Below, piece by piece: positions 4,201-30,736 of a stretch of 64,000 bases of DNA (position 1 is its first letter; each line of letters starts with the position of its first letter). The position numbers were made by a program, and so were the translations under genes. The DNA comes from Eutreptiella sp. 'Long Island Sound 2002' (Eukaryota > Protista > Euglenida), in NCBI GenBank assembly GCA_964036045.1, contig OZ038378.1:96348001-96412000 (forward strand), given 5' to 3'. The notes under the pieces are model-generated. The model ran no database searches, was not told where the DNA came from, and saw only the letters and a list, made by a program, of their open reading frames with translations.

Positions 4201-4749
4201 CCAATGCGGCCTCCTCTCTTGCATGTAGGCGTAGCAGAGGTAGGCAGGTAGGTCGACTCGGGACTCGGGTTGCCCCGCAGGGGGTCTTACCAAGGGCCTT
4301 TCGCTCACCCACCCTCGGCCCTACTGCACGTGCCCCCACAAAGCGGCTCCCCCCCACGGGGGAAGGGCGCGGTTTCCGCGAGCAGTACCCTACAGCGAGT
4401 TCTGCCCAGATAGGTAACCCATGTTCGACCAAAGTCTCACATTCCTCTCCTTTCAGCGGATGACACGTGGGGGAGGGTCCCATCGCACATCCTCATCAAC
4501 CTCCGGTTTCCGGGGCCCAGGGGCCGGGAGCCAGGCCAAAGGCCCTGTCCTGGAGGCACCCCCACCTTGGTTGGTTTTCAGTAGGCGTGAGGCGACTTGA
4601 AGAAGCACGTGCTTGCATGCCGTGGCGCACACTCACGCCTCCTGACTCGGTCGAGCTTGCGCTCTCCCGGGAGGCCGGGGGTTCGAGGTAGGTCGTCGCG
4701 GTCGGTTGGTTGGTCGTTTGACGGTTCAGTGCAGTTGTTCAATGCTGGT

Positions 4750-5520
4750 TGGCCGGTTGCGTGATGGTAGAGTTACGGTTTTGTTCGCGGATATGGTCGC
4801 TGGCGGGCGTGGCGCATCACGGCGCTGGCACCCCAATGGACGCCGTTCCCGTTTCAACCCGTGCATGCCCGGCTGGTTTGGTGTTGGCCGGCTTGCGTGT
4901 GGTCTGTATACGGTCAAGTGGCGGCTGCAGCTGCGGTGTGGTCGGTGCAAGGTCGTCTTAGCCGCCTCATGGTCGGCTCGGTCTGCGTGGGTTTCGTTGC
5001 GCCGCTGCCGGCGGTCGTATTGCCGAATGTTGTTTGTGCGGCCGACACGTCCGTGTCGGCGCTGGCCAGTTGCGTCTTGGTTGGTCCAAGGGCGGCGTAG
5101 TGCGGTTAGTCAGCGCTGGTTGGCCGCGTCCGTAATGGTAGAGTTGCGGTGTTCTGTCGTGTCTGTGGGCATGGTCCCTGGCGGGCGTGGCGCACCACGG
5201 TGCCGCCTTCTCGTTGGATGCCGTACCCGTTTCGACCCGTGCATGCCTGCAGCTGCGGTGTGGTTGGTGCGCGGTTGTCTTGACCGCCTCATGGTCTGCT
5301 GGATTTGTGTGCATTCTGTCGCGCTGCTGCCGGTGGTCCTATCGTCAAATCCTGCTCATGTAGTCGGCATGTTCGTGCCGGCGGTGGTGAGTTGTTTCTT
5401 GGTTTGTCCAAGTGTAGTGTATGGCAGTTTGTGGACGTTGGTTGGTCCCGTCCGCGGTGGTAGAGTTGCGGTGTTCCGCTGTGTTCGTGGTCATGGTGTC
5501 AGCAGCTCATTGGACGTCGT
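4750..5520. repeat. Three diverged copies of a ~320-370 bp GT-rich repeat
   Basis: Motif (a/g)tggtagagtt(a/g)cggt(g/t)tt recurs near 4763, 5135 and 5456; the first two continue with ggcgggcgtggcgca.cacgg. Confidence 0.6.
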
Positions 5521-6519
5521 TCTCGTGCCAGCCCATGCACGTCCGGCCAGTTTGGTGTTGGCTGGCGTGCGTGCGGTCTGTTGATGGTCACTTCGTGTCC
5601 GCTGTAGCGGTTTTATTGGTGTGCGGTCGTGTTAGTTAACCCCTGGTCGGTGGCGTTGGTTCCTTGTCGTTGCAGCGGGCGTGCGCGCAGTCGGATTTGT
5701 TGCGTGCAGGTGTTCTGTTGGTGGTGGTGTTGGTTGGTGCCAGTTGCGTGGGGTCGGCACGGTACGTTTTCATCCTGCGCCGTCTGTCCACCGCGGAGGA
5801 GAAAGTGATGACAAGCGGTCGGACCGCTGTAAAGAATATTTTTCCCCTTTCGGTGCCCTTGTTGCTGCCCCTCCCTGGCAGTGTTGCATGCGCAACCCAT
5901 CATCCGGTATTTCGCGGTGTCCTGTAGCCGTCCTTCCAGTTTCGCTTGTGCCATTCATATGTACACCTCCGGCTGATGGCAAGGCCCCGTCGGTCCCCCT
6001 TGGCGCGCTCCTGTGCTCCCCATGGGAGCCCCAGGGTGCCGTTTTAGCTCGGTGGTGTGGTGCTCGTGCTCGTGTCTGCCTGCCTGCCGTGCGCTATGTC
6101 TTGCTGTGTCTACCGGGTCATGCGGGCGGCGTGCCTGCGTCGCGGTGCTGAGTTTGGTGGTTAGGATGGTTAGGGCGGTTCGACTTGTGCTGTGGTGCCT
6201 GGACGTTCCGTCAGATGTGGTGGGTTGGGCTCGGCGTAACATATCCGTGCCCGCGGGTAGGGGGTCGGTGTGGCCCCGTGTGGCGAGCCTGTGGCCCCCT
6301 GTGTGCCCCTGGGTGGGGTTTCGGAGGACAGGAATACCGGGCAGCGTTGCAGCCCCCCTCCCGCTTAACGACTTTGTTAACCTTCTGCGGGGAGGGGCGT
6401 ACTCGTACCATTCGCGTAGGTTATATGTGCTGTAACCCCCCCGGCGTCCCAGGCGTGTAACGTTTCGGAGGAGGTGCGCGCCGGTCCTCGCGGTGCACGT
6501 ACCCCTGGACGCTCGCCTT

Positions 6520-7800
6520 GGATGGTAATACTCTGGACAAATGTTTGTTAACATTCTCCTGGTCATCGGCCCGGCCGTGGGCCTCTCTTGTGTGGCCGGG
6601 TCCTTTGACTGGTCCCTTGTGTATCCGGCTCGTGGGACAGGAGGGTGAGGTGGAAGGACGGGTCTGGGCGTGGTGCCGCCCCTTTCGCTGTTGCAGGCGG
6701 GTTGCCGGGCCCGGGAAGCGTGGCCACCGTCCGGGGGATGTAGGAGGAAGTCGTTGGGCTTTCGTTTGTGCTCGATACCACAGGCTGCTAAGGCTAGCCC
6801 CCATTCTTTGGGAATCTGTTGCACCTGTCGGGCAGGTTGATGTCGTTCCCGTCGGTGTGTCCGACCGACAGCGCGCGTCGTTGGGTTGTACAAGGGGGTC
6901 CTTTTGGGCGGGGTTGGCTCGCCCGGGGTCGTCGCGGTTAATTGTCGAGTGCGCAGTTGTTTGTGTGACGTCCATGGGCTGGCCCCCTGGTGGGTGGAGG
7001 CATCCCCGCAGTCGTGTCATCTCCTCCCTTGCGCATGGCCGGCGCGGGATTCCTGTCGCGCGTGTGTGGCTGTGTGCCGCCGCTGCGGGTCCTGTGGCTG
7101 GCTGTGGCTCAGGGTCCTGCGGTTTCCTCAGGCGTCGCACAAGGGCGCTGCGGAGGGTACCGAAGATTTCGTGCACAAGGGTCGTGCGTACCGCCCGGGC
7201 CTCCTTCGCAGTGCGGATGGCGGGCTGCCGCCGTTCGCCCAGCGCCAGCGCCCGGATCTGGTGGATCGCGGTGTTCGACAACACTCCTGCGGTCATTGGC
7301 TTGGCCGTGGGCCCCGCTTGTATGGCTGGCCCCTTTGCTCGGTCCCTCATGGTATCGTTACGCGGGAGAAGAGGGTCAGGCGGGATGCCGGGCCTGTGTG
7401 TGGCGCTGCCCCCTTTTCCTGTTGCAGGCGGGTCGGGGGGCCCGGGAGGTGCGGCCGTCGTAAGGGGGATGTGGGAGGTGGTCGTTGGGGCTTCATTCGT
7501 GTCGGACACCATGAGCTGCTAAGGCTAGCCTCTCCCTCTCGGGCGCCCGTTGTACGTGCCGGGTAGGTTGACGCCTTCCCCTGTTGGTGTGCCTGGTCAA
7601 CGGGCGTTGCTGGAGTGTGTTGCGCGGCCGCGCGTTGTTGGGTTGTACGAGGGGGTCTTTTTGGGTGAGGTCGGCTCGCCCGGGGTCGTTGTTGTTCATG
7701 GCCGACTCCGCAGCCTGTGGCGTGACGTTCATCGCCCGGTCCTCTGGCGGGAGGAGGGGATCCGGCGTCCGCCTTGTCGTCTCTCCCTTTGCGCATGGCC
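6520..7800. repeat. Diverged tandem duplication, period ~730-760 bp
   Basis: ctgctaaggctagcc at 6785 and 7516; ttgggttgtac.agggggtc.tttt at 6881 and 7638. Confidence 0.7.
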
Positions 7801-10800
7801 GGCGTAGCAGAAGTAGAAGAACACTCAGATCGACCTTGAGTTCCTCAAACGCTGTGAGCATCCTTGAGGATTGCGAAATCGAAGCAATCCTTTGAGGTCT
7901 AATCTACAAAGGAAGAAGGGCATGTGCAAATAGTCATAGGAACATTTCAAACATCAGAACCATGTCCTGGTTAGGGTAAGGTGCAATAGTCATCATAAGT
8001 GACGGAGAGAGAGACGTCAGGGCAGGAGAGGGGGAACAAAGAAAGCCCATTCTCCCCCTCAGCAAATCCTGGGTAGCCTGATTCAGCATCCACAAGGGGG
8101 AAGAACAGAACATGCAAAAACAGCAAGACATGGATAAGGCCCATTGGCTGTCAAAGCCTACCCTAGTGGGGGTGCTATCACTCCCCAGTCCTGCCACTAC
8201 AGGACCCCAGAAGCAGGAGTCTGGGGCTTACACTCTCACTCTCCAGATTTATCAAATATCTCAACCTAGCTTGCCTTGGAGCAGGAGATAGCTTCACCAC
8301 ACCACTGTAGGGGGGGGGGGGAGGTCCCCGGTGCCTACAAGACTTAGGCCAAAAAAATATTGTTGAAAAGCGGGGAAAGTGGTATATCACTTATGCGACC
8401 AAAATATACCATATCCCAAAAGGGGACAAGGGTGATTGAGCGTAGCCAAGACCTTCACCCTGACACACGTACATAGAAGGGCAGGACCCAACTCCACACG
8501 GGCTCCGAGAACCTAGCATGGGAAGCAGCACACATAAATGGGCAAAGCCAAAAATCAGAGGTCACCGACTTGAATACACTCTCCTGCGGAGACAAAGGAA
8601 TTTTCGAAGGACCCCATGTGGACATATCGGAAGGGCATCAGTTCAATCCTTGGCCCACTTGATATTGGAGTCTGTCTCCCTGATTCCACGACACTGTAAC
8701 AAGACTGGTGGATTCCACAAAATGGTGACATTCCCAGTGGGGAAAAACAAGGGAGGAAAGAATGCAAATAACTCTGACATACGGTTAGCCTAAAGTCCAG
8801 CGAAAAGCGAGCACCAGGCATACTGCGAGGATGTGATGGTCCCAGAATGGTCCGTCCTACCTCTTTCTCAGGTTGGATCAAGGCAACAAACTCCAATACC
8901 CACGTTTTGACATCAATTTTGAGGACCTCAAAAAGGTCTAATACATGCATTTAGGAGTCAGAAATAAGGTCAAAACCGAATATACGACATATGGGTTTTG
9001 TCTCATTTTGTAAGGGTAGGCCATAGCTCAGACTCCTCAGGTCTGCAGAATAGACACTTATGAGAGACCATGGGTGAAATATTGCGTCAAACCCAGCCGA
9101 TTGCCTAACCTTCCCATGGGTCAGAAGTGACCTCATGAAAATCGGAATTTTCAACCAATCTCCAGAGAAAATTCAGAGCAGTGAGCCTATGTACCAGTAA
9201 CCCTCCAACAAATGCTCAGTACAAAGTAGAGAACACAATTGAAATTTAGGAAAAGCCTCCAAGGTCTAAGTCCTGATAGGTTCTTTACTGCTCACCCGCC
9301 AAGTGACTACATGACAGGCTAATATTCAGGGTCCATAATGTACATCTCTCGACCATGTAAAGCCACTACTTTGGGTACCTTGCAAACTGGTTTCCAATGG
9401 CTTGGTTATGTTACAAAACAAAGCAAAGCAAGTTCAAATAACCAATGTAGAACCATTGGGGAGGTTGTGGGTCAAGCAACAAGAAGATTTGGTCCTAAGA
9501 CCCAGAAGACCCAAGTGGAGTAAGTGAACACACAACATTTGTAATGTCCAAAAGGGTTCCGAGATTGCACTGCTCTGGTGAGGCACATTGAGTTAGAACC
9601 CACTAAAAGCATGTATGTAGAGTGGAAGGCGTGCTCCTTCTGCGAATTCATTGATTTGACTTCAACCCAAAATGTATATGAAAATAAAAGTTCGAATGTT
9701 CAACCCATAACTGAGTAAATCGGGGCAGCGTTCACATGACAGAATTTACTGCAAGCAAAAATTGGCGAAAATGGCACATAACAATCCGGTCGTAGCCGAA
9801 TTATAAAAATCGACAAGAACTTATCGCGACCCTATATGATAAGTAGGGACCATGGAGACCACGAATGGTTGAACGTTCGGCAAGAAGGCCAATGGTAGTG
9901 GATCACCATGGTCATCACAAGTGAATACATGAAGGAAATTCAGGACACAATCACTAAGCTTCATATGTGGCCCTGTGTACAAGGCTTCACGGCTGTATCC
10001 ATTTTATTCCCGCGGCTGTCCTTCGAGGAACCTCGCATGGTGAGCAGTTTGTAATGAAGTTTTCGGCGGGAAACCGCCATGTCTCAAAAGGCTCCACAGC
10101 GGAAAGAAGTGCATTAACAAACGTAAACACAGCCGACAACACGCACACACAGGACTTAGGCTCAAACTGGATGCAAGCTTGGGAATCCAAGTTTAAAAAA
10201 GAGGGTTATCAAAGGCCGAAAATTGGTGATTTTTGGCACAAAATGACTGTGCCAAATTGAGCTGAAAAACATTTGAAATTTCGAATATATAGATGTTGAA
10301 AGCTCTGAGACGCAACCAAAACTCCAACTGTTATTGTTTGTACTGACGAAGTACGAACCACATCCGCTGTTACGTAAGTGCCACTATATCTCGGAGATAT
10401 AGTGTCCAACGTTTACCGCATGAAAACAAAGTGCTCCTAATCTTGACACCGAAATTGACACCAAAAGAATCACCATTGGCTCAAATGAGCTCAGATCAAG
10501 GTGATAATGAAACTACGGACAGGTGGTTATGACACCAAAAACAAATTGCAACGAAAGTCGACGATGACGCAACACATGAACTCGACAAAATGGCCTTGTG
10601 AACATAACAAAAATACACTATCCATGCATCGAAGTGGGTCCGATCACTGATTGTGGTAACCCACCACGACCATAAGTCGTGATTGCAGAGGCGAGCCAAG
10701 GCAAACAAACGTGTGTAGCAATCTTGACTTCATCCTGCAATCATTGAAATCAACTTGACTTTGAGACTCACCATGGTTTCCTTACCACAACCGGAACTCA

Positions 10801-12476
10801 ATTCATCTGCAATACCTCTACTCCTTCATTTGAATTGCAACTCCCACAAACAAATAACCTACCATTGCAGAGAAGAGTCATGCAAATCCAATGCATCTCT
10901 GTTCAAGTGAAATGGATGTAAAATCTCAATTTGCGGTTGCGCAGAAGTGAGCACATGAAATGCATAGCATATGCATGCCAATCTAGCATTGGAGGATAAA
11001 CGAAAAAGAAACCGTAAGGTGCTGACAACGATGCCTGAGCTATCCCTATACTTTAAAAAGCCGGGCATCATGACGTTAAGGGGTTTTTGAAACTAGTCGC
11101 ACCGGAGCCTGAACTTTTCTTTCCCTATTGTAAACTAAGAAATGACTTTTACAAACATGCAGTAAAAATTGGGTTAACTCAATAGGATGGAGTGGCCGTA
11201 AAGGCCAGCTCAGGGTGTCGTGATTTGGATCGTCAGATCCAAACTTGCAGTTCCACCACAAATTTGCGTGACGCCGATGTACCCCAGGCTGCTGCCAATA
11301 TCTAACTTCTGTACGTATGCAAATTTTACGGTAAATTCACATAGGTATCAGAAGGGCAATGAATTCGGTTTTAATTGAAGAAAAGGGGCAGAAGAACAAG
11401 CCGAGTTCCCTGATATCCCTACTGCAGGCTCATGTCAATAGTAAGATGAAAGGAAAGGTAAAGGGGGGATAAAGGATAATGATATGCCGTATCAAATTTT
11501 TAATAGTATGCATCTTTGATAGCCCATACAAAGAGATGACAGGGGTCAGTACAAGGAGGGGTATGTGTCCGCAAAACCAGGGATCAGGCACGACAGGGGG
11601 GAACGGGGGCTGCAAGGCATGATAGAAACCAAACTCATGACCCCTCGGAACAGGTGTCATCCTTCACGTCGTGGATCAACACCCCATTCATTGGGCAAGT
11701 CCGCAGGCAGAAGATCCATCTCCGGGTAATTTGCTTGGAAGCCTCGGGTGACTTCACAGCTCTCCCCGGGATAGGAGGATTGAGTCTCTCAGGCCATCAA
11801 AACATCTGTTGCTTGCTTGCTCCATCCCAGTTCTGGTGCGATGTCGTCTCGTTGGAGTGGTTGAAATACTGGCTTAGTAGAGCAGCCCCCTAGTCGGGTG
11901 GTTTTACACAGCCGTTGCGTGTCGCTCTGACCTCTGCGTAATGCCGACCTCTCAGAGCCGAGTTCGGCGGACCAAATTCTGCCCCCACAATCAGTGTTTT
12001 GTGCACGAGCCGTCATATACCCCCCCCCCCCCTCCCCACGCAGCTGAATCCTGAGGAAACCAGGTGGGCGACTGACCCCTTCACTGATTTGAGCTCTAGT
12101 GGCCTTTGAGCCCGTACGACATTGTGCAATGCGTGTCGCTGCCAGCAACACTGCAAATGTGTGTGGCCTCTGGTCCCATGGCAAATCTTCCCAGATCGTG
12201 TATGGGTGTGTCTGCAGACCCTGTATTGCCTGCCTTAGGGCATTTCTTTCCTCGTACCTCGTGCAAATGCCTTCATCTGACGAGGACTTCGGTTTGTGCT
12301 AAATCTGGAGCTTCCCTATATGCATCTTGACCTATATTTTTGTGTTACTGCCCTGTTTGTCAGGATGCGCGTCGTTCCATGCCATCTCTCCCTGTTTTGC
12401 ACTCAGAGCCACTGCACTGTCCTGTTTTACATCATACTTGAGCAACCTCGGGCGTGTTCTGTCATACGCACCCCTA

Positions 12477-13269
12477 GAAAAGTTTATAGTGGTTTCAACA
12501 CTGTGTTTTTGTCTCTCCTGCTGCTTGCTGCTGGTGTAGGGTTTCCTGCTGCTTGTTTTTGGAGATGAAAACCTTTTGTTTGCTGAAATACAGTAAATTC
12601 AGGATAGCCCAAGCGAGAGGTGTGCAAGGAGAAGAGAATCAGGATCAAAGCATGAAGGGCTGCAGTGTAAACAGTGAAAGATGAAAGGATATTCACAGAA
12701 ACTGCAACTCAGGTCAAATCTGATTGCATATTCACAAAGATAGCTGAAATGCTTTGGAAAAGAGTTGGAAAACTGCCCCATAGTCAATCTATCTCCATGG
12801 TGCCATTTGAGGAGATGTGCACTCCTTGTTTTGGGTCCCATATGTGCTGAGGTGGCAGGGCATGTGGCGATGAGGTCACTGCCATGTCACATGGGATCTT
12901 CCTACTTACCTAGGCTGACCAGAAATTGAACCCAGGACCTCTCAAAAAGAGGTGCCCAGCCCCCTAGGGTGCATACCACTAGGACAGCTAAGAATTCATG
13001 GAAAAACATAGATAAATTCATAGGCTCTGCCCTGGATATGTCAGTACTCAGTCAACTCAGGAAGAGGTGATTTGCCTCACATTGAAAGGGGATTAAGGGG
13101 TCCACTCCATGTCCTGATTGGGTGTTTGGTTCCATAGGTCAAAATGTGTTATCACCACTTTTGGTGGGGCCAATACTAAGATAGAAATGCCTGGATGCTC
13201 AGTGCATCCCTAATACAACTAGAGTATGCCTCAAAGCATTGGAAAAGCAATTTTTCTTACTTCCCCCTG
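12477..13269 (-). repeat. 3' LTR-like direct repeat
   Basis: About 96% identical to 22929-23655 (I counted 16 differences in the first ~435 aligned nt), apart from a ~65 nt indel near 12920-12988. No TG...CA termini and no TSD seen. Confidence 0.65.
12915..12990 (-). other. tRNA-like (Pro-type D- and T-arm) fragment inside the 3' repeat only
   Basis: Minus strand has TGTCCTAGTGGTATG (A-box-like) and GAGAGGTCCTGGGTTCAATTTCTGG (T-arm/B-box-like). The middle does not form a normal anticodon arm, so this is not called a functional tRNA. Confidence 0.35.
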
Positions 13270-15411
13270 TGCTGTGGTGGCCACCACTGTCGCATTTTAG
13301 GAAAAAGGGATTTTTTGTTGGCCTTTCCTTGGTTTCCACATCTACTTTAAAATACCTATAGTTTCCCTCACACAGAAAAATGGGCGCTCACCATGGCTGG
13401 CGCTCTTTTGCTGCTCTGTTTGTATCATTTCCTACAGAAGACTCAGCGCTCATGGCGCTGCCGGGGCTCCTGTGGCTTGGTTGGGTTAGTTTGGGAGCAT
13501 GCCAAAACATGTGCATGTGCATCCCTCCCTCCAAGACGCAGCGCGACACAAACCCAACGCAAGACACAATATACACACTCGCATGGGTTCTCGTAAACCT
13601 GCTGGCAACCTGTGACCTGTCTTGGGGCGAAGGGGGTCGTAAAAAAATTAAATTGCCCCTTGGTGGGGTCTTGGGTTCTGCTCAGTCTCTCCAGGCTGCT
13701 GCGTTTTGGCCCGAACACGGCCTACTCAGCGAGGCTGCGCGTGGGTATCTGCAGAGGCAGGAATAGCAGAACTATGGACGAATCCACGCAAAAGCGAAGC
13801 GACGACACCAAAATCCGTCAAATGACGGCCTAGAAGTTTCCTAAGACAACACACCTGAGCAGAATCCAATGGTGCATCAGAAGAACATTTTTATAAAAAT
13901 TATAGTCATCTCTAGATTTTTTAAATCAAGAAATTCCTACGCATAAAAAGGCAGCGCGCAGGAGCGGCTCCTAGCGGAGCGCCAGAAAATGCAGAAATAA
14001 TGGCATTATAAACGTATGTCTCACGTAGTCGTGAAAATGACGAGACACACATTAATAAATAAACATACAGATTCCACCCAAACTAATAGAAGTATCAAAA
14101 ATCCAAGAATTCGAAAATCAACGAAAAGACTTCAATTAATCAGGTATAAACTACAGGTATGCTCGTCTCGTATGCCGCATACACATTGCTCGTCTCGTGT
14201 CTCGGTGAACGAGTCTTGTAGCAGCGCTAACAACGATAGGACGCGATAGAGGGATTGATCAGAAAGATTGCAGATGATTAGAGGTCAGATCAGGGTGATT
14301 AGACATACACATAAGTGCATAGTGACGTTTTTTGCTTGCGCCCCTCACGTGCTCACTTGCTCTCTCTCTCCAGCGGTAGGTAAGGTGAGTAAGCCCAGGT
14401 GGGGCCACCCCCTGGTCGAGTTCGTGATTGAGGTTGAGATGGGCAGGTTTGCCCAAAATACACGTGCATGCTCGCGCATTCACACACGCATTAAAGGGTA
14501 GGCCACGTGAAGTGCGCACGGTAATCCTTGTTTAGGCTACCCAGGGGCTCCTCGGTACGTTCTTTAAGAGAACCTGAGGAGTCCCTTAACGCTTGCTTGC
14601 TTGACAGGGGAGCTGATCCTTCAGCGCGTTTGCGGACAGTCTATTATAGGTCACGCTGAGAACCGTATAATACGGGGAGTGTGGCTTGGTCCCCCCGCCG
14701 CAAACACCCCTTCATTTGCCTTTGCTTTACAGGTGGGCAGGTAGGGTGATTGGTGCAGCAGCATACCATTTTTTTCATGCCCTGCTAAACAAGGGCGCAG
14801 ATCACACAAACAAATAACTCCGCCTCTACCTGTGGCAGAGCAGGGAGTCCGATTCCTTCGACATCTGCGCCGTGCACGCAAAAAAAGCACCTCTTCCCTC
14901 CAAGCCCTAGCAGGGGAAACGCGTTGTGGCGTCCCCTGCTAGGCCACAGTTGCGTAGCAGCGCTGTGTTCTCTTGTCTTCGTCACAGGAGGGTCGCTAGG
15001 ACCCACGACATGTTGTTCAACAACACCCAGTAGTGTGTGTGTGTAGGAGTGGTAGTCCTGAGTGGGGGCTTGAGCCAGTTGCAGCAGTGCTCGCCCACCA
15101 GGACTTAGCAAAACGGCGTTTTCATGCCTTCATACCTTTTGGCCACCCCTCCCTGTAGTAGACAGATAGGTAGGGAAAACAATACCTGGATTAGTACGCT
15201 GGGTATTCCCCAAAGGCTTTGCGCCAGCACAAAAATTGGGCGCTTAGGGGAGGGGGGACCCGGGGCGTACCCCGTGGCATCAATAAGCCAACCCTCCAGG
15301 TTTAGCAAGCGTGCAGACGTGGGTATAATTAGGACACCACTTCTGCGGCTTGCTCTCAGGACCTTAGGAATAGCACACTCACACATACACTTTGGCAGGT
15401 AAGGGTAAGGT

Positions 15412-17571
15412 TCAGTCCCTAGCTTTAGTCTTGGAGGCAAGCGTCTCAGCGAGCCTCAGCAACTCACCAAGGTTGTTCTGGGACAAGTAGTCCACCAGAA
15501 CTGAGTTTAGGCGTCCCTCAGGTAGAACAAATGCAGAGAAGGGCTCCCAGGTGGCCTCTTCGACTCCAAACCCTTCCCAGAGGGTGAGGAAGCGCCAACC
15601 CTGGCGATAGCGGTGGCGTAGGACAGACTTCACCAGGTAGAAGCCTTCCTTAGCCATCTGCTCGGCGTTCATGTCGGGGAGTTCACCTCCAACTTCCATA
15701 GGGCTGGCAGCCCCTTGTAGGTCCAGAGCGGCGATTTCCTCGTCGTTCAGCTCCCACTCCTCCCTACAGAGGTCTTCAGGAGCATAGTAGCGCTTCAGGT
15801 GTTTAGCAGCGCACACCAGGGTCCCCCCTAGACGGGGAGAACACCGCACGGTGATATGGTGTCCATCCACTGATAGAATCTTGTATGGCCCGAAGTATGG
15901 GTCATCGCTGGTAGAGCGTGGCCAGGCAGGTAGTCGACTGTGGTGCACCAGCACCCAGTCCCCCTCTTGGTAGGTGGCCGGTACTCGGTGCTTGTTCTTC
16001 TTGTTCCACTGACGCTCCCTCACTCTCTGGAGCATAGCCTTGGCCTTGTCCACCTTCGCTTGTTGTTCTTGGACCCATTCACCCACAGAAGAATGGGTGT
16101 CCTCTGGATAGGGGGCATGTAGGAACCATGCCGGGCGCCCTAGGAATAGCTCATGGGGCGAGTAGCCAGTAGCTGAACTCTCTTGGGAGTTCATCATCAA
16201 GGATATGACGGGGAGTAGTCTCACCCAGTCTCTGGTGCGTTCAGTTTTGGACCATATCTGTACATTCTCCTTCAGGACACGGATCTGTCGCTCACATAGG
16301 GCGTCGCTCGTGTGCGAGTAGGGAATCCCCGTAGACACCTGGACATTGAGGGATCTCAGGACCCTCTTGTACCAACCGGTATCTGAGCGTACTCGTACGT
16401 CCTCATCGGAGTTGATCCCCTTGGGCGCCCCATAGACACAAAACCAGTCCTCCAGGAGTATCTTGATAGTCTTCTCCCCGGTAATGTGCTTGGTACATGG
16501 GACCACCCTGGTAAACCTGGTCAACCCACAGGTTACCACGAGGGCGAAGTCATAGCCCCCGAACTTCGGCATCTCTGTGTAGTCCACATATAGAACACTG
16601 TTAGCACAGTGAGGGATGGGTAGGGTCGAGTAGAGACCTCTGTCCCTGATATCCCCTGGTTTACAGGACCTGCACGGGCACTTGTCGACGATAGGCTGGA
16701 GGGTTTTCCGCAGTTGTTCGTCAGTCCACGTAGTGTGGAACCACTGCTTGAACAGCCTCAGGGTACGGTCAGCACCCACATGACCGCTGGACTCATGGGT
16801 CCACTTCAGCAGCGCTGGGACTCTGTCACTAGGCACCACAATGCGGTCCTCGTGCCAGAGGTAGCTCTTGTCCCTCTTCCACTGGTCTTGGTTGACCAGT
16901 AGGGGTTCAAGGCGTTTATCCAGGCGCTTGTAAATATCCCCAAACTCCTTCAGGTACTCCGATTGTTGGAGTCCATCCAAGGGGCGTATCATCGTCATGT
17001 TGAGGTCCAAGTGGACGTCCATACGGCTGAACGCCTCCTTAGCCAGTGCTTCAGACCAGGCACTAATCAGGGCGTCAAAGTTGTTGCGGCTGATGTAGTC
17101 TGCACACTCGTTCTTCACTCCCTGGATATGGTGTACCATGAGCCGTAGTTGCCTGAGGTAGGTCCACCAGCGCCGTAGCTTGGCCTTCTCAGGTGGGGGA
17201 CCCTTCTGGAAACTGCGGACCGGTTCTTGGTTGCACAGCCAGACCACAGGGTTACTCCCCAACAGTTGTGCTTGTGAGGATAGCACCAGCATACCCGCGA
17301 GCAATTCCTGCTCATAGGTGGAGTAGTTCCCCCTGGCCTGGTTCCACTTCCAGTTCCAGTGGCCCAGAGGTACTAGGACCCACTTGTCGTCAGGGTAGCT
17401 GTGCTTGAGGGTTCCATCTCGGTTGAGACCTTCCGTCCCCCATTGGGAAATGGCCGAGTCGAACTCTTCCTTCTCTAGTGCTTGCCATTGGAACAACGTT
17501 CCACCACCGCCCACATTGCTGGCGTCGGTCACCAGGATAATCTTTCCTTGTGCCCTAGGACGCCCAAGCAC
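15412..17571 (-). pseudogene. pol: RNase H, integrase, GPY/F and chromodomain part of pol
   Basis: LVTDAS...YSTYEQELLA...NECADYISR (RNase H); THESSGHVG...CPCRSC (HHCC); VDY / NSDED / CERQI (DDE); YFGPYKI; FYLVKSVLRHR...FLTLWEGFGVEEATWEP (chromodomain). Confidence 0.95.
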
Positions 17572-19043
17572 TTAGCGCTGGCTACCTTGTCTTTGAGCTC
17601 GTCAAACGCTTGTTGCTCTTGTGGGCCCCAGCGCCAAGTAGTACTCTTCTTGATCAAGTCCGTCAGAACGGCGCTGGTGTAGGTGAAGTTTTTGATGTGG
17701 CGGCGATAGAAGATGCACGCCCCAATGAAACTGCGTACATTATGAAGTCCTTTCTTGGGGTCTTCGTGTCGTACCTTGGCATCCATCAGGGGTTTGGCCT
17801 TAGAGGCCGCTGGGGTCCACCACCCATAGCAAACATCGAACCCCAGGTACTGCATGGTCTCCTGCATGAACTCACACTTCTCCTGCTTGAGTCGTCTGTG
17901 GTTCTCCTGGCAGACTGCAAAGAACTCACCGAAGAGGATTAGGTGATCCTCCTGGGTATTGGTCCCGAGGCATACATCGTCGATGTGAGCCTCCATCTGG
18001 GCACCACGGGATATGAGCTCCTGCACCTTAGGTCTCCTTCGTAGGATGGACAAGATCTTGTTCATCAGGTCTTGGAATAGAGCGGGTGCGTTGGCCACAC
18101 CAAACGGCATGACCTTCCACTTGAATACCCTCCCCTGAGGGGTGATGAAGGCCAGTAGTTCCTGTGCGTTGGGCGTCAGGTCCACTTGCCAGAATCCGCT
18201 CCTCTTGTCCATTTTGGTCTTGTAGCGACAGGAGGCTATCTTCTCCAGGGTAGAGTCCATATTGGGAATGGACCCTGAGTGGTTCAGCCTTTTCTTGTTC
18301 AGCTCTCTGTAGTCCACTACCAGCCGTTTGGCTGTAGACCCAGGTTTAGCCACCAGGAAACAGGGGCTGCAGTGTAGGGGGTACTCCTCGTCCTTGTACT
18401 CCAGGACTAGGCCAGCGTCGATACATTCTTGTTTCTGTCGCTCAATCTCGTCGGCCTGCTCTTTAGGAGCTGGATAGGGTCTCCTCCGGATCTTGTGACC
18501 CACGAACTCGGGTTTCAGCTTGAGGTCCATCTGTACCAGCTTGTCACATGAGGCTGGAGGGGGTAGTTCTCCGAACACCCCTAGATAGGTTCTTATAAGC
18601 TTCTGTACCCACGGGTCCAATACCTTGATCTTGTCCTCCATGTCCTCGTCAGAGTGTAAGTTGCTTGCCCCCTGAGTAATAGACGTCGGGAGGTGGTCCT
18701 CCACCGACTCTTCGCCCGTGGCAGTGTCCTTCAGCCCTTGGTAGGCATATAGAAGGTCTTGTTCAACCATCTCCGGTGGACGATGGCAACATAGGCACGC
18801 TCGAGGGGGTTCACATACACATTCCTCCGAGAGGTCGTCCTCCTCTGGGGTCCTCACATGGGCGCCCCACACGCTCTTCATAAGCTTGAGATCTACCTCC
18901 CTTTGCGAGGTGGTGATCTTCTGTTCGAGGTCCTCCTTCAATTGGGATAGGTCTCCCATACGTCCTTGCTTCAGTGGCCATGAGCTGCGGGTAGGCTTCG
19001 CGTAGCATAGCTCTTTCGGCACCAACTTTATCTTGGAATCCAA
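17529..19043 (-). pseudogene. pol: Reverse transcriptase domain of pol
   Basis: IRRRPY, SPCFLVAKPG, RLVVDYRELN, DKRSGFWQV, FKWKVMPFGVANAPALFQ, AHIDD. Preceded by two in-frame TGA (19044-46, 19062-64) and followed by a 1 nt frameshift near 17560. Confidence 0.95.
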
Positions 19044-19449
19044 TCACTCCCTTAGCCTGGATCAAGGGTCCAGCTCCTCGTCCACGAGGTCTTCCACCCT
19101 CATGGAGAGTAGGGGTTTCAGTGGGGCGACGTACTCGGCATTCTCCACCTCCTCCACACAGGTCTGCACGAAGAAGGCGTCGTGCTCAGTTTTGTCATCT
19201 GAGTGGATAGAGCTAGGTAGCTCAAATAGTCCACACTCAGAGACTCCATCAGGAACAGGTACATGACAGGGAGAGTTGGGGGTGTTGGTGTCAGTCACGA
19301 CGTACTCATCTCCTTCGGGTGTAGTCTCAACAGCATCTTGAGGTCGTAGGCGATCCTTCAAGTCACCCAAGGCGAGTCCGTCGGTTTCTCGTTGTATAGC
19401 CTGGAACAGAGTCGGGTCCAGATCCTCCGAGGAGATGGAGGTAAGACCT

Positions 19450-19870
19450 CCGTCCACCACGCTCAGCATACTCCCCCATCCGGTTTTCCCAATAGGCGTC
19501 TTACGACCCAGAGGCACGTAGATGGCCTCATCAGGTAACCGAACAGAGCTGATAGTCAGCCTGTCCAGGAGGTTTTGCCAGTATTTGTTGCCCCCATGGG
19601 CTCCCCAATCGGGGGAACACAGGACCATACGGGAACGTTCCAAGGCCACTTTGGTCAGCACCTTCCCCAGCTCACTGAACCTGGGGTTCCCGTAGGCCAT
19701 CCCGAAAGAGGGCCAGTAAAATTTTCTAGCTGCAGTTCTTCCCCTTGCTGCAGTAAAGGTCCAGTGCATGCTGCTTGTCGCTGGCGAACACCTCCACACT
19801 CAGGTCTTCTCGAGAGTAACCCAACTCCTTCAGACCTTGGTCTAGGACTTCCTTGAATAGTTGATAGTCC
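19450..19870 (-). pseudogene. Dam-like (DIRS-type MT) N6-adenine methyltransferase domain within pol
   Basis: Joined reading VEVFASDKQHALDLYCSKGKNCS/KFYWPSFGMAYGNPRFSELGKVLTKVALERSRMVLCSPDWGAHGGNKYWQNLL follows the DIRS MT/phage Dam pattern DLFAS..N..L..YCS...F.W...Y.NPPFS....VL.K....ILVAP.W...W..L. Broken by a TAG and a +1 shift at 19721-19728. Confidence 0.8.
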
Positions 19871-20325
19871 TCAGTTTTGGAGGCCGCCATCATGTTCCAG
19901 GGCTCCTCCTTCGATAGCCTCAGGTAACTCGAGGTATGTTCTGACTGCTCCAGTGGCACAGACTCTTTGCACTGCCGTGGTCCACGTAGAGGAGGTAGGG
20001 GTTGTATCTGCGAGTGCTGTACGAAGAAGTCAGTCCCCAGTACAAAGTCGAAGGCCTCAGTGTCCATCACATAGAACCGATGGGCGATAGTCCGGGAGCC
20101 CATAGGTACCTCCACTTCACAGTTCCCGCAGCTGTGCACCACATGTCCATCCCCCATGCGTATAGCAGCGGTGGTCATGGTGTTCTTCAGGCTCCCACAA
20201 GGTAACATTTTCTTGGCCACTATAGATATGGTGGCGCCAGTGTCCAATACCCCCAGGTATTCGCGTCCCCCTAGTCGGATACGTACCCAAAACACCAGGT
20301 CTTGGGTGCCACCGGAGCGTCCCCG
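19870..20325 (-). pseudogene. pol: Retropepsin-type aspartic protease domain of pol
   Basis: LGVLDTGATISIV active site and FDFVLGTDF; in frame with gag after a single TGA. Confidence 0.9.
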
Positions 20326-22830
20326 TCAGAACTCCGCGGGACAGGTCACCTCGAACCCCTTGTTCCGCAATTTGCGGGCCATCCTCATGAAACGGCTCCT
20401 CTTCTTAGCGTTGCCGTCATCACCACCTTCATGCTCACGCTTGGCTCCTTGTTGTTGCTGGGCCTGCGTTTGTGACTGTGTGGTAGGACCAGACTGCCCT
20501 CCAGAGGGCTCGGAGTTCCCCCCTGGATTAGGGTTGGGGTTGCCTCCGTTCTTGTCCTTGTTCTTGTTGTCGGGCTGGCGGTTAGCGCCTCCTCCTCGTC
20601 CACCTTGACCCTTGTCTTGCCCTTGACTACGTCCTTTCGACTTGCCCTTGCCGGAGTCGTTGCCTTTGCCTTTGCCTCCACCTTTGCCGGAGCCTTTGCC
20701 AGGATCTTCACCCTTAAGCCTCGCCGATAGGCGTTGCTTATGGTAGCACTCATCCTCGTAGTGCTTCCGCTTCCCGCAGAATGCACACGGGATGGTGCAC
20801 CTGTAATGATCCGGCAGCTTCGCTTTGGCGCCGGTGTTCTTCTCCTGCTGCTTCCCCTGGACTACGAAGCAGTCTCGCTGCTCGCAGTCAGGGGCGTGCT
20901 GCAGGTGGCCTTGCTCGTCTCTGGCATCACACCAGAATAGCTCCTTCACGTTCTCCATGATACGGGCGTGGGCGTGTTTGGGGGTAGTCCCCTGCCCAGG
21001 TCGGGACCCTTGGTACCCTTTGCCATGACCTCCAGAACCTCCTCCTCCAGGACGGTAATTGTTCAAGTGCTGGTCGCTCTCCTTCTCCAGAGCCAGCTCA
21101 AGGAGTAGCACGCATAGATCCTCGTAGCAGAGGGATCTAGCCTTGCGCTCCGCCGTCGAACGGCACTCGTCCCATAGCTCTCGAGGGAGCTTGGCCACCA
21201 ACCAGAACAGCAGGTCGTCGCTGCTGTAGGAACTGGGCGTCAGTCGTCCAGCCCAGTGATCCAGGTCAGCCAACAGCTCAGAGACCCTGCCAGGTTTGGG
21301 GTTGTTGGGCAGCACGGGCAGGTTCTGGATCTCAGCCCTGATGGAGAGGTCAGTTTCGTAGGTCGGGTACTGCCTCTCCAGGGCAACCAACACATCGGCA
21401 AAGGTGGCGGAGTTAGTCACGATCTGCCTGACCTGCTTGTCCAGGTACTTGGTCTTGCAGCACTGCAGGAGCAGATCGCACTTGACTCGCCCACTAGCGT
21501 TGGTTTGGCCGGTCAATCGGAAAAACCGGCCAAAATTCTCAGCGAACTCGCTGAGGTCCTTGCCTGTGAACTCAGGCAGGTTCACCACGATCTTGGAGGT
21601 GGCAATAGCCTTCGCCTCCTGAGACCTGCGTCCCTCAGGGCATCGGGTTTTCTTCTTCTTCTTCTTCTTCTTCTTCCCCCTTGGGTCCTCGGGGTCCTCC
21701 GGGTCATCGTCATCCGAGGGCGAGGCAGAAGTCATCGACGGCGGCTCATCATCGGAGGGGTCTTCGCCTAGATCACTAGAGCCATAGAGCTCGACGTCCA
21801 CCATTGCCCTCAAGGCTGTCAGCCCCAGCCGGTCCAGCTCATCCCTCGTAGAGTTCGTCACGTGGCTGTAGGGCGGCTTGGCCGTTCTCGGTACGAAAGG
21901 ACTTCTCGGTATAGCTGCAGGAGTCGGCATCGGTCGGCTCCTCAGGCTCCCCAGGGTGTTTGTCAACCCTGCCGCCAGGTGGTTGGCCTGTACTCGGTGG
22001 GGTGACATTCCCACCGTGGTAGGTGACGCTTGGGGCGGTATCATCAGGGGCTCCGGTTTCTCTCGGATCTCTTGAGTGAGGTCGCCCACGATTTTTGTAG
22101 TGGCTCCTCGGAGCACCTCGTTGATCTCCGACCGCGTCAGGGACCTGTTGGAGGATCTCCCCGATCCTCCACTCCTGCCTCCCAGAGACTCAGGTCCTCT
22201 CCTCAACCCACTCAACGTTGCATACCCAGGTGCATACCCAGGAACATCCACATAGGTTCGAGTAGCGGGTAGTGGATGGGGATATTCAGCCGCATACCAT
22301 CGCGGCGCAGAGCTGGAAGCCACCAGCTCACTGGCAGTAGTTGCCTCAGGGAGCGCAGTGGTAGGTGGACCCATACCATAGGCGGGGTAGGGAGGCATGC
22401 CAGTAAAGCCTGTGCCCTCTGCCATAGGCGGGTTGGTTATGGGAGTGGATGTTGCAGTGGCTGAATCTCGAATTGGGAGTGTGGTGGTTATAGGAGAGGG
22501 TGATGCGTGGAGGCCAGAAGTGCTTGGTGCGCCTTCGAAGGTAGGGTCATTCGTCAGGTCTTGCCCTTGTTCCTCTCCTTCGTCTGCTTCGTCTCCAGCA
22601 TCCTTCTCGCTCTCTCCCTTCCTCTTCACAGGCTGAGTGACCACCTCCTCGACTGAGAGGGCTCTGAAGGCTGTCTGGAGTCCATCCAACGAGTCCTCAG
22701 CCACTTTCACTGGCCAATGTAAGGGCTCCGAAGGTACAGCGCGAGGTCCAGGTCCAGGTTCACCAGGTACTGGCCTTGCCGGTGCCTCAGGCGCTGTCTT
22801 CACGTCGGCGTCCTCTTTCCTTGGATCCAT
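20326..22830 (-). CDS. gag: Gag-like polyprotein (834 aa) with CCHC zinc knuckle
   Basis: Uninterrupted ORF after the PBS; CAFCGKRKHYEDEC fits C-x2-C-x4-H-x4-C; capsid-like LPEFTGKDLSEFAENFGRF segment. Confidence 0.85.
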   Translation of the reverse strand: MDPRKEDADVKTAPEAPARPVPGEPGPGPRAVPSEPLHWPVKVAEDSLDGLQTAFRALSVEEVVTQPVKRKGESEKDAGDEADEGEEQGQDLTNDPTFEGAPSTSGLHASPSPITTTLPIRDSATATSTPITNPPMAEGTGFTGMPPYPAYGMGPPTTALPEATTASELVASSSAPRWYAAEYPHPLPATRTYVDVPGYAPGYATLSGLRRGPESLGGRSGGSGRSSNRSLTRSEINEVLRGATTKIVGDLTQEIREKPEPLMIPPQASPTTVGMSPHRVQANHLAAGLTNTLGSLRSRPMPTPAAIPRSPFVPRTAKPPYSHVTNSTRDELDRLGLTALRAMVDVELYGSSDLGEDPSDDEPPSMTSASPSDDDDPEDPEDPRGKKKKKKKKKTRCPEGRRSQEAKAIATSKIVVNLPEFTGKDLSEFAENFGRFFRLTGQTNASGRVKCDLLLQCCKTKYLDKQVRQIVTNSATFADVLVALERQYPTYETDLSIRAEIQNLPVLPNNPKPGRVSELLADLDHWAGRLTPSSYSSDDLLFWLVAKLPRELWDECRSTAERKARSLCYEDLCVLLLELALEKESDQHLNNYRPGGGGSGGHGKGYQGSRPGQGTTPKHAHARIMENVKELFWCDARDEQGHLQHAPDCEQRDCFVVQGKQQEKNTGAKAKLPDHYRCTIPCAFCGKRKHYEDECYHKQRLSARLKGEDPGKGSGKGGGKGKGNDSGKGKSKGRSQGQDKGQGGRGGGANRQPDNKNKDKNGGNPNPNPGGNSEPSGGQSGPTTQSQTQAQQQQGAKREHEGGDDGNAKKRSRFMRMARKLRNKGFEVTCPAEF

Positions 22831-22916
22831 CTTCGTTCGCCCTTCTGCTTATTGGTGACTGCTCGGCGCACTGGATGTACGGCGCGGGGTTGCTGCCGGT
22901 GCGCAGAGACAGTCTG

Positions 22917-22928
22917 CCTCTGCTACCA
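22917..22928 (-). promoter_or_regulatory. Primer-binding site complementary to the initiator tRNA-Met 3' end
   Basis: Minus strand reads TGGTAGCAGAGG, the complement of CCUCUGCUACCA at the eukaryotic tRNA-iMet 3' end, immediately 3' of the 5' repeat and ~90 nt upstream of the gag ATG. Confidence 0.85.
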
Positions 22929-23655
22929 GAAAAGTTTATAGTGGTTTCAACACTGTGTTTTTGTCTCTCCTGCTGCTTGCTGCTGGTGTAGGGTTTTTTG
23001 CTGCTTGTTTTTGGAGATGAAAACCTTTTGTTTGCTGAAATACAGTAAATCCAGGTTAGCCCAAGCCAGAGGTGTGCAAGGAGAAAAGAATCAGGGTCAA
23101 AGCATGAAGGGCTGCAGTGTAAACAGTGAAAGATGAAAGGATATTCACAGAAACTGCAACTCAGGTCAAATCGGATTGCATATTCACAAAGATAGCTGAA
23201 ATGTTTTGGAAAAGAGTTGGAAAACTGCCCCATGGTCACTCTATCTCCATAGTGCCATTTCAGGAGATGTGCACTCCTTGTTTTGGGTCCCATAAGTGCT
23301 GAGATGGCAGGGCATGTGGCGATGAGGTCACTGCCATGTCACATGGGATCTTCCTACTTAGCTAGGCTGACGAGGATAAGAATTCATGGAAAAACATAGA
23401 TAAATTCATAGGCTCTGCCCTGGATATGTCAGTACTCAGTAAACTCAGGAAAAGGTGATTTGCCTCACATTGAAAGGGAATTTAGGGGTCCACTCCATAT
23501 CCTGATTGGGTGTTTGGTTCCATAGGTCAAAATGTGTTATCAGCACTTTTGGTGGGGCCAATAGTAAGATAGAAATGCCTGGATGCCCAGTGCATCCCTA
23601 ATACAACTAGAGTATGCCTCAAAGCATTGGAAAAGCACTTTTTCTTACTCCCCTG
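22929..23655 (-). repeat. 5' LTR-like direct repeat
   Basis: Copy of 12477-13269; directly abuts the PBS. Confidence 0.65.
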
Positions 23656-28959: not shown

Positions 28960-30350
28960 GTTAGGTAGGTAGGTAGGTATCTTCGAGAGCTCGGGATGCC
29001 TCCTTTGACATTGCAGGAAGAAGATCTTACCAAAGGGACATCCTGTCCCTCCCACTGCCCTATGTCAGGTGCCTCTTGAGCCGCTCCCGCATGTGCTTGG
29101 GAAGGCATTGTCGCGGCCACCCGGTCCATGTGTCCCACGTGGGAGGGTGTCCCCACATGTGTCCATGGGTAGGGCCACTTGCCCCCTCCTTTGGGCGGCA
29201 GCTCTGGGGGCTGCCGAGCCGTGTGGAGTATCTCTCACCACAAGGGGTATTGCTCCCGCTAGTCTACGGTACGACCGCCTCACCGTTGTGGCTTGAGTTG
29301 CGGGGCCACTCTGCTTGGCAGGCGACCCCCTCCTGGACTGTGTACCGCCTCGCCTGTCACCGGTTGCTTTTTTTGCACTGAACGGCGCCTTTTGTGGCTG
29401 GCCAGGCCGTTAGCAACCGGTGACAGGCCTGTCACCGGTTGCTTCCATGGCTCCAGGTGATGTTTGCCATGGTCCCCTATGCAGCCTGGCCGGGCTCGGA
29501 CCAGTGGCCTTGGAGTACCGCTCCTGCCACTGGCCCGGTGGGTCGGCTGGGTTGCCCCAGTTCGTCCGACCCATGGGGTGTTGGTTCTTTCCTGTCCCTC
29601 GGCCGCCCTACGTGTGTGCAGTGTCCATGGCCGCTTGGCTCCTGTTCACTGGTGTGCCCGCGTTGTTTGTTGTGTTGCGCCAGCGGTGTCCTGGGCCACT
29701 TGGCTCCCGTTCACTGGTGTGCCTGCTCGGTGTGGTGTGTTGCGTTCGCGGTGTCCCGGGCCACTTGGCTCCTGTTCACCGGTGCGCCCGCTCGGTGTGT
29801 TGCTTTGCGTGTGCGGTGTCCTGGGCCACTTGGCTCCTGTTCACCGGTGTGCCCGCTCGGTGTGTTGTGTTGCGTCTGCGGTGTCCTGGGCCACTTGGCT
29901 CCTGTTCACCGGTGTGCCCGATCGGTGTGTTGTCTTGCGTGTGCGGTGTCCTGGGCCACTTGGCTCCTGTTCACCGGTGTGCTCGCTCGGTGTGTTGTGT
30001 TGCGTGTGCGGTGTCCTGGACCACTTGGCTCCTGTTCTCCGGTGCGCCCGCTGGGTGTGTTGTAGTGTGTGCAGAGTCCTGGGCCACTTGGCTCCTGTTC
30101 ACCGGTGCGCCTGCTCGGTGTGTTGCTTTGCGTGTGCGGTGTCCTGGGCCACTTGGCTTCCTGTTCACTGGTGTGCCCGCTCCGTGGGTTGTGTTGTGCA
30201 TGCGGTGTCCTGGGCCACCTGGCTCCTGTTCACCGGTGTGCCCGCTCAGTGCGTTGTGTTGTGTGTGCGGTGTCCTGGGTCACTTGGCTCCTGTTCACCT
30301 GTGCGCCCGCTCGGTGTGTTGCTTCGCGTGTGCGGCGTCCTGGGCCCCTT
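28960..30350 (-). mobile_element. 1.39 kb non-LTR-type insertion (SINE-like or truncated LINE) with (ACCT)n tail
   Basis: Flanked by GGAAAAC at 28953-59 and 30351-57 (10/11 match if extended to GGAAAAC[G/T]TTA). (TAGG)4 at the left end, minisatellite at the right end. Removing it restores a 73 nt intron. Confidence 0.7.
29623..30347. repeat. 65 bp minisatellite, ~11 copies
   Basis: Unit gtcctgggccacttggctcctgttcaccggtgtgcccgctcggtgtgttgtgttgcgtgtgcggt starts at 29623, 29688, 29753, 29818, 29883, 29948, 30013, 30076, 30141, 30207, 30272 and 30337. Confidence 0.95.
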
Positions 30351-30736
30351 GGAAAACTTTAAATGAACATACAAATTAACCCGATTGCTTCAGTTCAGCA
30401 GTCGGAACAAGAGCACTCATCTGCACAGCATCCACAATAGCGATCTTCAGATTGCTGTACGTGTCAGGTAGGTTCTGCCGCCGCTGATCTTCAACACACC
30501 GAAGGAGGCTATCTGCCGCCTGTTACATTAAAATCGGCTCAACGTCCTGTGCGCTTCCTTGCGCTTGTCCCACCAGTTTTGTACAGAAGGCCCACGGTGA
30601 AATCAGGCTTCAAAATATCGGCCGTGCATGTGGTATGCCACTTGTACAAATCCAGACATGCTGCCCGTGGCTTCTCCCCAATCTTGAAAACTGCCCCCAA
30701 TGCTGTGCTGTTCAGATACACACCAATAACCACCAT

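What the first reader, a model, noticed from the sequence alone, without database searches (positions are those of the whole stretch)
19450..19870. Ty3/Gypsy chromovirus-like element carrying a Dam-type adenine methyltransferase domain inside pol
Seen: between protease and RT, a ~140 aa segment with EVFAS..H.L..YCS, F.W....Y.NPRFS, VL.K and VLCSPDW...W motifs. Established: this MT/Dam domain (PF05869-like) is typical of DIRS1-type tyrosine-recombinase retroelements, where it follows RT/RNase H; it is not a standard part of DDE-integrase Ty3/Gypsy elements. Inference: independent capture or transfer from a DIRS element, giving an LTR retrotransposon that pairs a chromodomain (chromatin reader) with a possible 6mA writer, perhaps marking its own cDNA or insertion. 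The catalytic motif is NPRF instead of NPPF/Y (19677-88), so activity is uncertain. I cannot confirm that this architecture is unreported.
Basis: partly seen in the sequence, partly recalled or inferred. Interest (0 to 1): 0.8.

Follow-up and report, generated by a model that had tools for sequence, protein, structure and literature searches.

The report
Gypsy retrotransposon with altered Dam-like domain
A dead copy of a very abundant Gypsy-type jumping gene carries a domain predicted to fold like an adenine methyltransferase, a design already described in a 2026 preprint; here the family has replaced one catalytic-motif residue (NPPF to NPRF) yet keeps the domain conserved, so it is likely needed but may no longer methylate.

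Summary
Confirmed. Window 19449-19866 (minus strand) encodes a Dam/PCIF1-fold domain between protease and RT of an 11.2-kb LTR element (12476-23649; gag, PR, RT, RNase H, integrase, weak chromodomain hit). This copy is dead. The model of an intact copy (pLDDT 94.6) matches phage Dam (E 4e-6) and PCIF1 (Z about 10). NPRF is the family state, not decay: 106 of 120 homologues and 5 of 5 intact Pol ORFs. Variants shared among copies are 18 silent to 2 replacement, so selection keeps the domain. Sister families in the same RT clade carry NPPF in the same place, so the domain was inherited, not newly captured. Pfam Dam misses this family. The architecture is published: DAM-LTRs, including chromodomain-bearing ones (bioRxiv 10.64898/2026.05.21.726589). 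This scan has noted the class on other DNA (57 notes), none with NPRF. What is left as new is a prolific family with a fixed Pro-to-Arg change in motif IV, beside an equally prolific NPPF sister: a natural pair for testing whether catalysis matters. Activity, substrate and host lineage are not established.

The parts
22928..23649 (-). 5' LTR, 722 nt, ends AG...CT
12476..13261 (-). 3' LTR, 786 nt; 27 mismatches in 722 aligned bases and one 64-nt indel against the 5' LTR
23650..23654 (-). 5-nt target-site duplication (AGGGG), upstream copy
12471..12475 (-). 5-nt target-site duplication (AGGGG), downstream copy
22917..22928 (-). likely primer-binding site TGGTAGCAGAGG, overlapping the LTR's last base; match to initiator tRNA-Met is recalled, not tested
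   Evidence: own knowledge
20326..22848 (-). gag-like ORF, 840 codons, Cys/His-rich part, no Pfam hit; ends at an in-frame TGA followed by CGG
20023..20283 (-). aspartic protease (LDTG at 20247-20236)
19449..19866 (-). Dam/PCIF1-fold amino-methyltransferase-like domain, broken in this copy at about 19722-19728
19780..19794 (-). motif I-like stretch EVFAS (ELFAS in 87 of 120 homologues), inferred SAM-binding
   Evidence: role inferred
19677..19688 (-). motif IV variant NPRF, family-wide
19605..19625 (-). VLCSPDW, conserved strand and P-D-W after motif IV
17835..18350 (-). reverse transcriptase with HIDD in place of YxDD; two stops upstream at about 19044-19064
17152..17544 (-). RNase H; frameshift against RT at about 17559-17571
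16315..16611 (-). DDE integrase core (zinc-binding part just upstream)
15541..15639 (-). chromodomain-like part at the end of Pol (Pfam E 0.008, below cut-off)
13262..15411 (-). 2.1-kb stretch between Pol and the 3' LTR; 7 ORFs of 95 codons or more gave no Pfam hit, no cytosine methyltransferase seen

Best explanation
This is a dead copy of a high-copy DAM-LTR retrotransposon whose Pol carries an inherited domain predicted to have the Dam/PCIF1 fold, with a family-wide NPRF motif; selection keeps the domain, which likely binds the element's own RNA or cDNA with weak or no methyltransferase activity. Shown: anatomy, inheritance within one RT clade, fixation of Arg, an excess of silent variants, intact and nearly identical Pol ORFs elsewhere. 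Predicted: the fold. Inferred: Pol is made by read-through of the stop after gag, so the domain would be packaged in particles and act in cis during reverse transcription or integration, free or still attached after protease cleavage. Identity as a Dam-like domain of a DAM-LTR: about 0.95. Non-catalytic or weakly catalytic role: about 0.5.
For: Fold: pLDDT 94.6, pTM 0.89 from a 62-row alignment; best viral matches are phage N6-adenine methyltransferases (E 4.4e-6, TM 0.70); best solved matches are PCIF1 (Foldseek E 1.8e-4; VIA Z 10.2, rmsd 2.7, 122 aligned). Fixation: NPRF in 106 of 120 listed hits, none NPP; Arg at that place in 37 of 41 cluster members that cover it, picked without regard to the motif; Pro there in 53 of 58 relatives under 60% identity. 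Selection: 18 of 20 segregating sites silent against 0.31 expected (p 5e-8), while 6 of 8 changes private to this copy alter the protein (Fisher p 0.002); net divergence between two subfamilies 0.060 in the domain, 0.061 in the protease, 0.135 and 0.147 in the flanking linkers. For weak catalysis: the lost proline is among the best kept residues in relatives (44 of 48) and Asn-Pro-Pro is near-universal (preprint); Iyer et al. judged DIRS domains inactive (PMC4738411, passage); even canonical domains gave no 6mA in E. coli; other Gypsy Pols here have altered motifs too (P0339, P0381); the family amplified as much as its NPPF sister (clusters of 6186 and 5370 proteins).
Against: NPRF keeps the three contacts named as catalytic in DNA m6A enzymes: the Asn/Asp side chain, the carbonyl of the first proline, and the aromatic residue (PMC3814359, passages). 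39 of 43 well-conserved columns are kept, including F-A of motif I, which fits an active enzyme equally well. The Arg codon itself segregates only silently, which could mean Arg is selected. A farther part of the linker (421-580) is as conserved as the domain (0.061), so low divergence alone shows no enzyme-like role. Nucleic-acid binding was not tested at all.
Confidence: 0.5

Rival explanations
1. The NPRF domain is an active N6-adenine DNA methyltransferase that marks the element's cDNA or RNA:DNA intermediate, so that new insertions would be kept in 6mA-marked, permissive chromatin by host AMT1 (the preprint's model); Arg is a tolerated or specificity-changing variant.
For: Asn, first Pro and Phe kept; purifying selection and high fold confidence; DAM-LTR copies carry more 6mA than other LTR elements in three species (preprint).
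Against: No Dam-like retroelement domain has shown activity in the preprint's assay; the second proline is otherwise near-invariant; three further conserved columns changed with it; no 6mA data and no AMT1 status for this host.
Confidence: 0.3
2. The domain methylates or binds the element's RNA, as PCIF1 does at mRNA caps, aiding translation, packaging or escape from host RNA surveillance.
For: PCIF1 is the closest solved structure; Iyer et al. place DIRS domains in the PCIF1 clade; PCIF1 prefers ssRNA over hybrid, ssDNA and dsDNA (PMC9178792, abstract and passages).
Against: Phage DNA methyltransferases match at least as well; the 150-residue domain covers only the catalytic core of the roughly 480-residue PCIF1 chains (TM by target 0.22); no RNA modification data.
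Confidence: 0.12
3. The domain has no function of its own any more and is kept only as a foldable in-frame spacer between protease and RT.
For: An in-frame position forces an open frame; the motif is altered; part of the downstream linker is equally conserved.
Against: 18 of 20 shared variants silent; divergence equal to the protease and under half that of the adjoining linkers; 39 of 43 conserved columns kept.
Confidence: 0.08

Closest known systems
DAM-LTR retrotransposons (Fernandez-Moreno et al., bioRxiv 10.64898/2026.05.21.726589; whole main text read; figures and supplements not seen)
   Same: Ty3/Gypsy-like Pol with a short Dam-like domain, with a chromodomain in the most abundant class; five independent lineages named (Chlorophyta chromovirus-like, Chloro-Ochrophyta, Ichthyosporea, Pyropia, Euglena).
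   Different: Motif IV is NPRF, not Asn-Pro-Pro; the family does not hit Pfam Dam, so an HMM screen at E 1e-5 with that profile would probably miss it. The text does not give a protease-Dam-RT order for any lineage (the architectures are in Fig. 2B, not seen). Which lineage, if any, this clade belongs to could not be tested.
MT (Dam, PF05869) domain of DIRS tyrosine-recombinase retrotransposons (PMC3783388 and PMC4738411, passages read)
   Same: Same domain family, by the Pfam hits of sister elements and the fold.
   Different: DIRS lack protease and DDE integrase and have a tyrosine recombinase; this element has protease, rve integrase, LTRs and a 5-nt TSD.
EpiLTRs (DAM + DNMT + chromodomain; same preprint)
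   Same: Dam-like domain and chromodomain in one LTR element.
   Different: No cytosine methyltransferase found in intact Pol or in the 3' stretch.
PCIF1/CAPAM cap adenosine methyltransferase (PDB 6IRX, 6IRW, 6IRZ)
   Same: Closest solved fold, Z about 10, rmsd 2.7 over 122-131 residues.
   Different: 13-18% identity, core only; PCIF1 is a host RNA enzyme.

Membership tests
Ty3/Gypsy LTR retrotransposon | Pol order PR-RT-RNase H-DDE integrase | tested here: met
Ty3/Gypsy LTR retrotransposon | Direct LTRs, TSD, primer-binding site | tested here: met
   LTRs 96% alike, 5-nt TSD, PBS-like 12-mer; ends are AG...CT, not TG...CA
Chromovirus clade | C-terminal chromodomain | tested here: inconclusive
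   Pfam Chromo E 0.008-0.013, below cut-off, at the expected place
Chromovirus clade | RT groups with named chromoviruses | tested here: inconclusive
   the RT clade is long-branched with unresolved placement; no named chromovirus references in the tree
DAM-LTR | Dam-like domain encoded in an LTR element's Pol | tested here: met
   fold; sister elements hit PF05869, two above cut-off (P0200, P0345)
DAM-LTR | Direct hit to the Pfam Dam profile at E 1e-5 | tested here: not met
   0 of 6 family proteins at E up to 5; intact Pol none at E up to 0.05
DAM-LTR | Asn-Pro-Pro catalytic triplet | tested here: not met
   NPRF in 106 of 120, NPP in 0 of 120
DAM-LTR | Domain nests among DIRS domains in a tree | not tested
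DAM-LTR | 6mA enrichment of copies; AMT1 in the host | not testable with these tools
   no genome held, no modification data
EpiLTR | Additional C5 cytosine methyltransferase | tested here: not met
DIRS retrotransposon | Tyrosine recombinase; no protease or DDE integrase | tested here: not met
Active N6-adenine methyltransferase | Asn/Asp, first Pro and aromatic residue of motif IV | tested here: met
Active N6-adenine methyltransferase | SAM-dependent methyl transfer | not testable with these tools
   needs an assay

The most novel reading that the evidence does not exclude
The NPRF domain is an active amino-methyltransferase with a motif IV that lacks the second proline, re-tuned by the Arg (and the coupled loss of a conserved Arg 45 residues later) to a new substrate such as the element's RNA:DNA intermediate; families like it escape Pfam, so self-methylating LTR elements are more common than the published screen found.
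Probability: 0.15. Interest if true: 0.65.

Novelty: new variant of a known kind. Interest (0 to 1): 0.32.

Why it matters
Whether retroelement Dam domains methylate anything is open: one review calls them inactive, a 2026 preprint links them to 6mA but could not show activity. Here a family with an altered motif and its canonical sister both reached thousands of database proteins, and the altered domain is still under purifying selection. Comparing 6mA on the two families, and their two natural domains in vitro, would test directly whether catalysis is the point. The family also shows that profile screens undercount the class. The architecture itself is not new.

Tried and rejected
No host genome is held, so copies were studied through database proteins and run contigs. 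Two metagenome scans found no locus (38 and 163 pattern matches, none confirmed). Sequence searches of PDB gave 0 hits at E 10. The protein atlas gave no answer, and the wide structural search was not run. A single-sequence fold of the NPPF sister domain was useless (pLDDT 33), so the two pockets were not compared in 3D. A search for named relatives to place the host gave 2 unnamed hits; the host lineage stays unknown. RT divergence between subfamilies could not be measured (too few pairs). The domain tree is the quick version only. Summed contig depths near one million in two runs fit a very high copy number but are not a count. One estuary RNA-library contig spans the domain with an open frame, but DNA in the library is not excluded, so it is not taken as expression. 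Dinucleotide counts in the element (ApT 0.80, GATC 1.02 observed/expected) say nothing on a target. Rejected: NPRF as decay of this copy; chance similarity; nested DIRS fragment; EpiLTR. Paper searches: five terms on Gypsy/DIRS/adenine methyltransferase gave 16 papers; 'NPRF' with 'methyltransferase' gave 1 listing on a tobacco promoter, not read; Dam + LTR retrotransposon + chromodomain + 6mA + protease as whole words gave 0; no mutagenesis study of the second proline turned up. Subscription journals and the preprint's figures and supplements were not seen and may show this lineage.

Full report
Observation. A stop and one extra base at about 19722-19728 split it in this copy. It lies between a protease and RT, followed by RNase H, integrase and a weak chromodomain hit.

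The element. Self-comparison shows two LTRs, 23649-22928 and 13261-12476, with 27 mismatches in 722 aligned bases, AG...CT ends, a 5-nt TSD and a PBS-like 12-mer whose match to initiator tRNA-Met I recall rather than tested. The copy is dead: besides the break in the domain there are two small deletions near 19969-19996, two stops near 19044-19064 and a frameshift near 17559-17571. No genome is held. Public runs of three coded organisms and of estuary and urban metagenomes hold the sequence; a unicellular eukaryote is likely but is my inference.

Is it a methyltransferase domain? Pfam Dam does not hit the window pieces or 6 of 6 family proteins. A phmmer search with the domain of an unbroken copy found 376 proteins at E up to 0.001, 150 listed. 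Of 20 divergent ones that I picked, 17 hit PF05869, one above its cut-off, and 6 also show a protease. AlphaFold2 on a 62-row alignment gave pLDDT 94.6. The model's best viral matches are phage N6-adenine methyltransferases (E 4.4e-6, TM 0.70), its best solved matches PCIF1 (E 1.8e-4; Z 10.2, rmsd 2.7, 122 aligned), then KsgA/Dim1, T4 Dam and M.TaqI at Z 7-9. The model depends on the alignment, which holds NPPF relatives, so it shows the fold and not the state of the pocket.

Is NPRF decay? No. It is in 106 of 120 listed homologues, with no NPP. Since that search used NPRF in its query, I checked 56 cluster members listed without regard to the motif: 41 cover it, 33 read NPRF and 37 have Arg. 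Five of 15 listed members of a 6186-protein cluster are unbroken 1632-residue Pol ORFs (PR, domain, RT, RNase H, integrase, chromodomain-like end); all five have NPRF and differ by 6-23 residues, a sign of recent activity. Among the 119 of 149 further representatives that cover the motif, Pro is at that place in 0 of 61 at 60% identity or more and in 53 of 58 below.

Is it under selection? Contigs of two runs of one study gave 29 variant rows at 27 sites in 19430-19880. At 20 sites segregating among copies, 18 are silent and 2 conservative replacements, against 0.23-0.31 expected (p 5e-8); I scored one site by hand as silent because both alternative letters give Leu (17 of 20 otherwise). Of 8 changes private to this copy, 6 alter the protein (Fisher p 0.002). 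The Arg codon varies only silently. Net protein divergence between two subfamilies (89 and 18 proteins) is 0.060 in the domain, 0.061 in the protease, 0.135 and 0.147 in the adjoining linkers, but also 0.061 in a farther linker part. Limits: sites are not independent events, and divergent subfamilies are under-laid.

Origin. An RT search gave 59 proteins. In a tree of 37 RT rows, 19 form one clade (100/100), most with His for Tyr in the YxDD motif; 14 show the domain between protease and RT, and the other 5 begin downstream of it and are uninformative. The NPRF family's sister (100/99) is an NPPF family of 5370 proteins, 80% identical in RT. The quick domain tree (29 rows) repeats the main groups. 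So the domain came down vertically and Arg arose once at the base of this family. A DIRS donor was not tested here. One distant Pol (P0381) has a weak hit to the domain with an eroded motif.

How it likely works. The in-frame TGA after gag seems to be the family state: 67 of 182 family proteins start just after it and the 5 that run through have residues one base from TGA; TGA-CGG as a leaky context is recalled. Pol would thus be made by read-through and packaged, which puts the domain next to the element's RNA and cDNA (inference). For catalysis the evidence is split. NPRF keeps the Asn, first Pro and aromatic residue that contact the target adenine (PMC3814359, passages), and 39 of 43 conserved columns. 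But the lost Pro is kept in 44 of 48 distant relatives, three other conserved columns changed with it, Iyer et al. considered DIRS domains inactive (PMC4738411, passage), and canonical domains showed no activity in E. coli. I put binding with weak or no catalysis at 0.5, active DNA 6mA writer at 0.3, an RNA-directed role at 0.12, spacer at 0.08.

Known systems. The preprint 10.64898/2026.05.21.726589 (main text read whole; figures and supplements not seen) describes DAM-LTRs, with chromodomain types at 30.9% of DAM-TEs, at least four transfers from DIRS, 6mA enrichment in three species, and the self-marking model. PMC6338049 (passages) mentions DAM in DIRS polyproteins. This element works like a DAM-LTR but fails two of its markers (Pfam hit, Asn-Pro-Pro), hence 'variant'. 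It is not an EpiLTR nor a DIRS.

Earlier notes of this scan. 57 notes hold the same key words, several with the same protease-Dam-RT order and altered motifs on other DNA; none holds 'NPRF', and none matched by sequence or place. They are unchecked and were not used as support, though notes on motif-less domains in other hosts shaped the non-catalytic reading.

Verdict. Real, correctly identified, already described as a class. The modest addition is a fixed, selected, Pfam-invisible motif variant with a canonical sister family for comparison. Interest 0.32.

Noticed in passing
window 38400-64000: Tandem array of about four to five units of 5.5-6 kb, 92-97% alike; each holds an ORF with collagen-like repeats (Pfam E 4.6e-9) and a weak Peptidase_S74 chaperone hit (E 0.04), as in viral fibre proteins. 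Possibly an amplified piece of an endogenous virus.
   Followed up: partly
window 18000-17980 (RT motif), and P0332-P0345: The RT of this clade has HIDD or HVDD in place of YxDD in nearly all members, intact young copies included.
   Followed up: partly
window 20326-20328: In-frame TGA followed by CGG between gag and pol, apparently the family state, suggesting stop-codon read-through.
   Followed up: partly
window 12476-13261 and 22928-23649: LTRs end in AG...CT instead of TG...CA, and the PBS overlaps the LTR's last base; a similar arrangement in insect gypsy-like elements is recalled, not tested.
   Followed up: partly
window 29575-30417: Tandem array of a 65-nt unit, about 12 copies.
   Followed up: no
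window 13262-15411: 2.1 kb without a recognisable ORF between the end of Pol and the 3' LTR; unknown whether it is part of the family or an insertion.
   Followed up: partly
P0339, P0342, P0153, P0381: Other Gypsy Pols with altered motif IV (DPPK, NPLF, NPYF, HPPS); single proteins, so decay is not excluded.
   Followed up: no
window 1-8000 and 36000-38000: GC-rich (60-67%), strand-skewed stretches with internal repeats and long ORFs without Pfam hits; probably other repeats.
   Followed up: no
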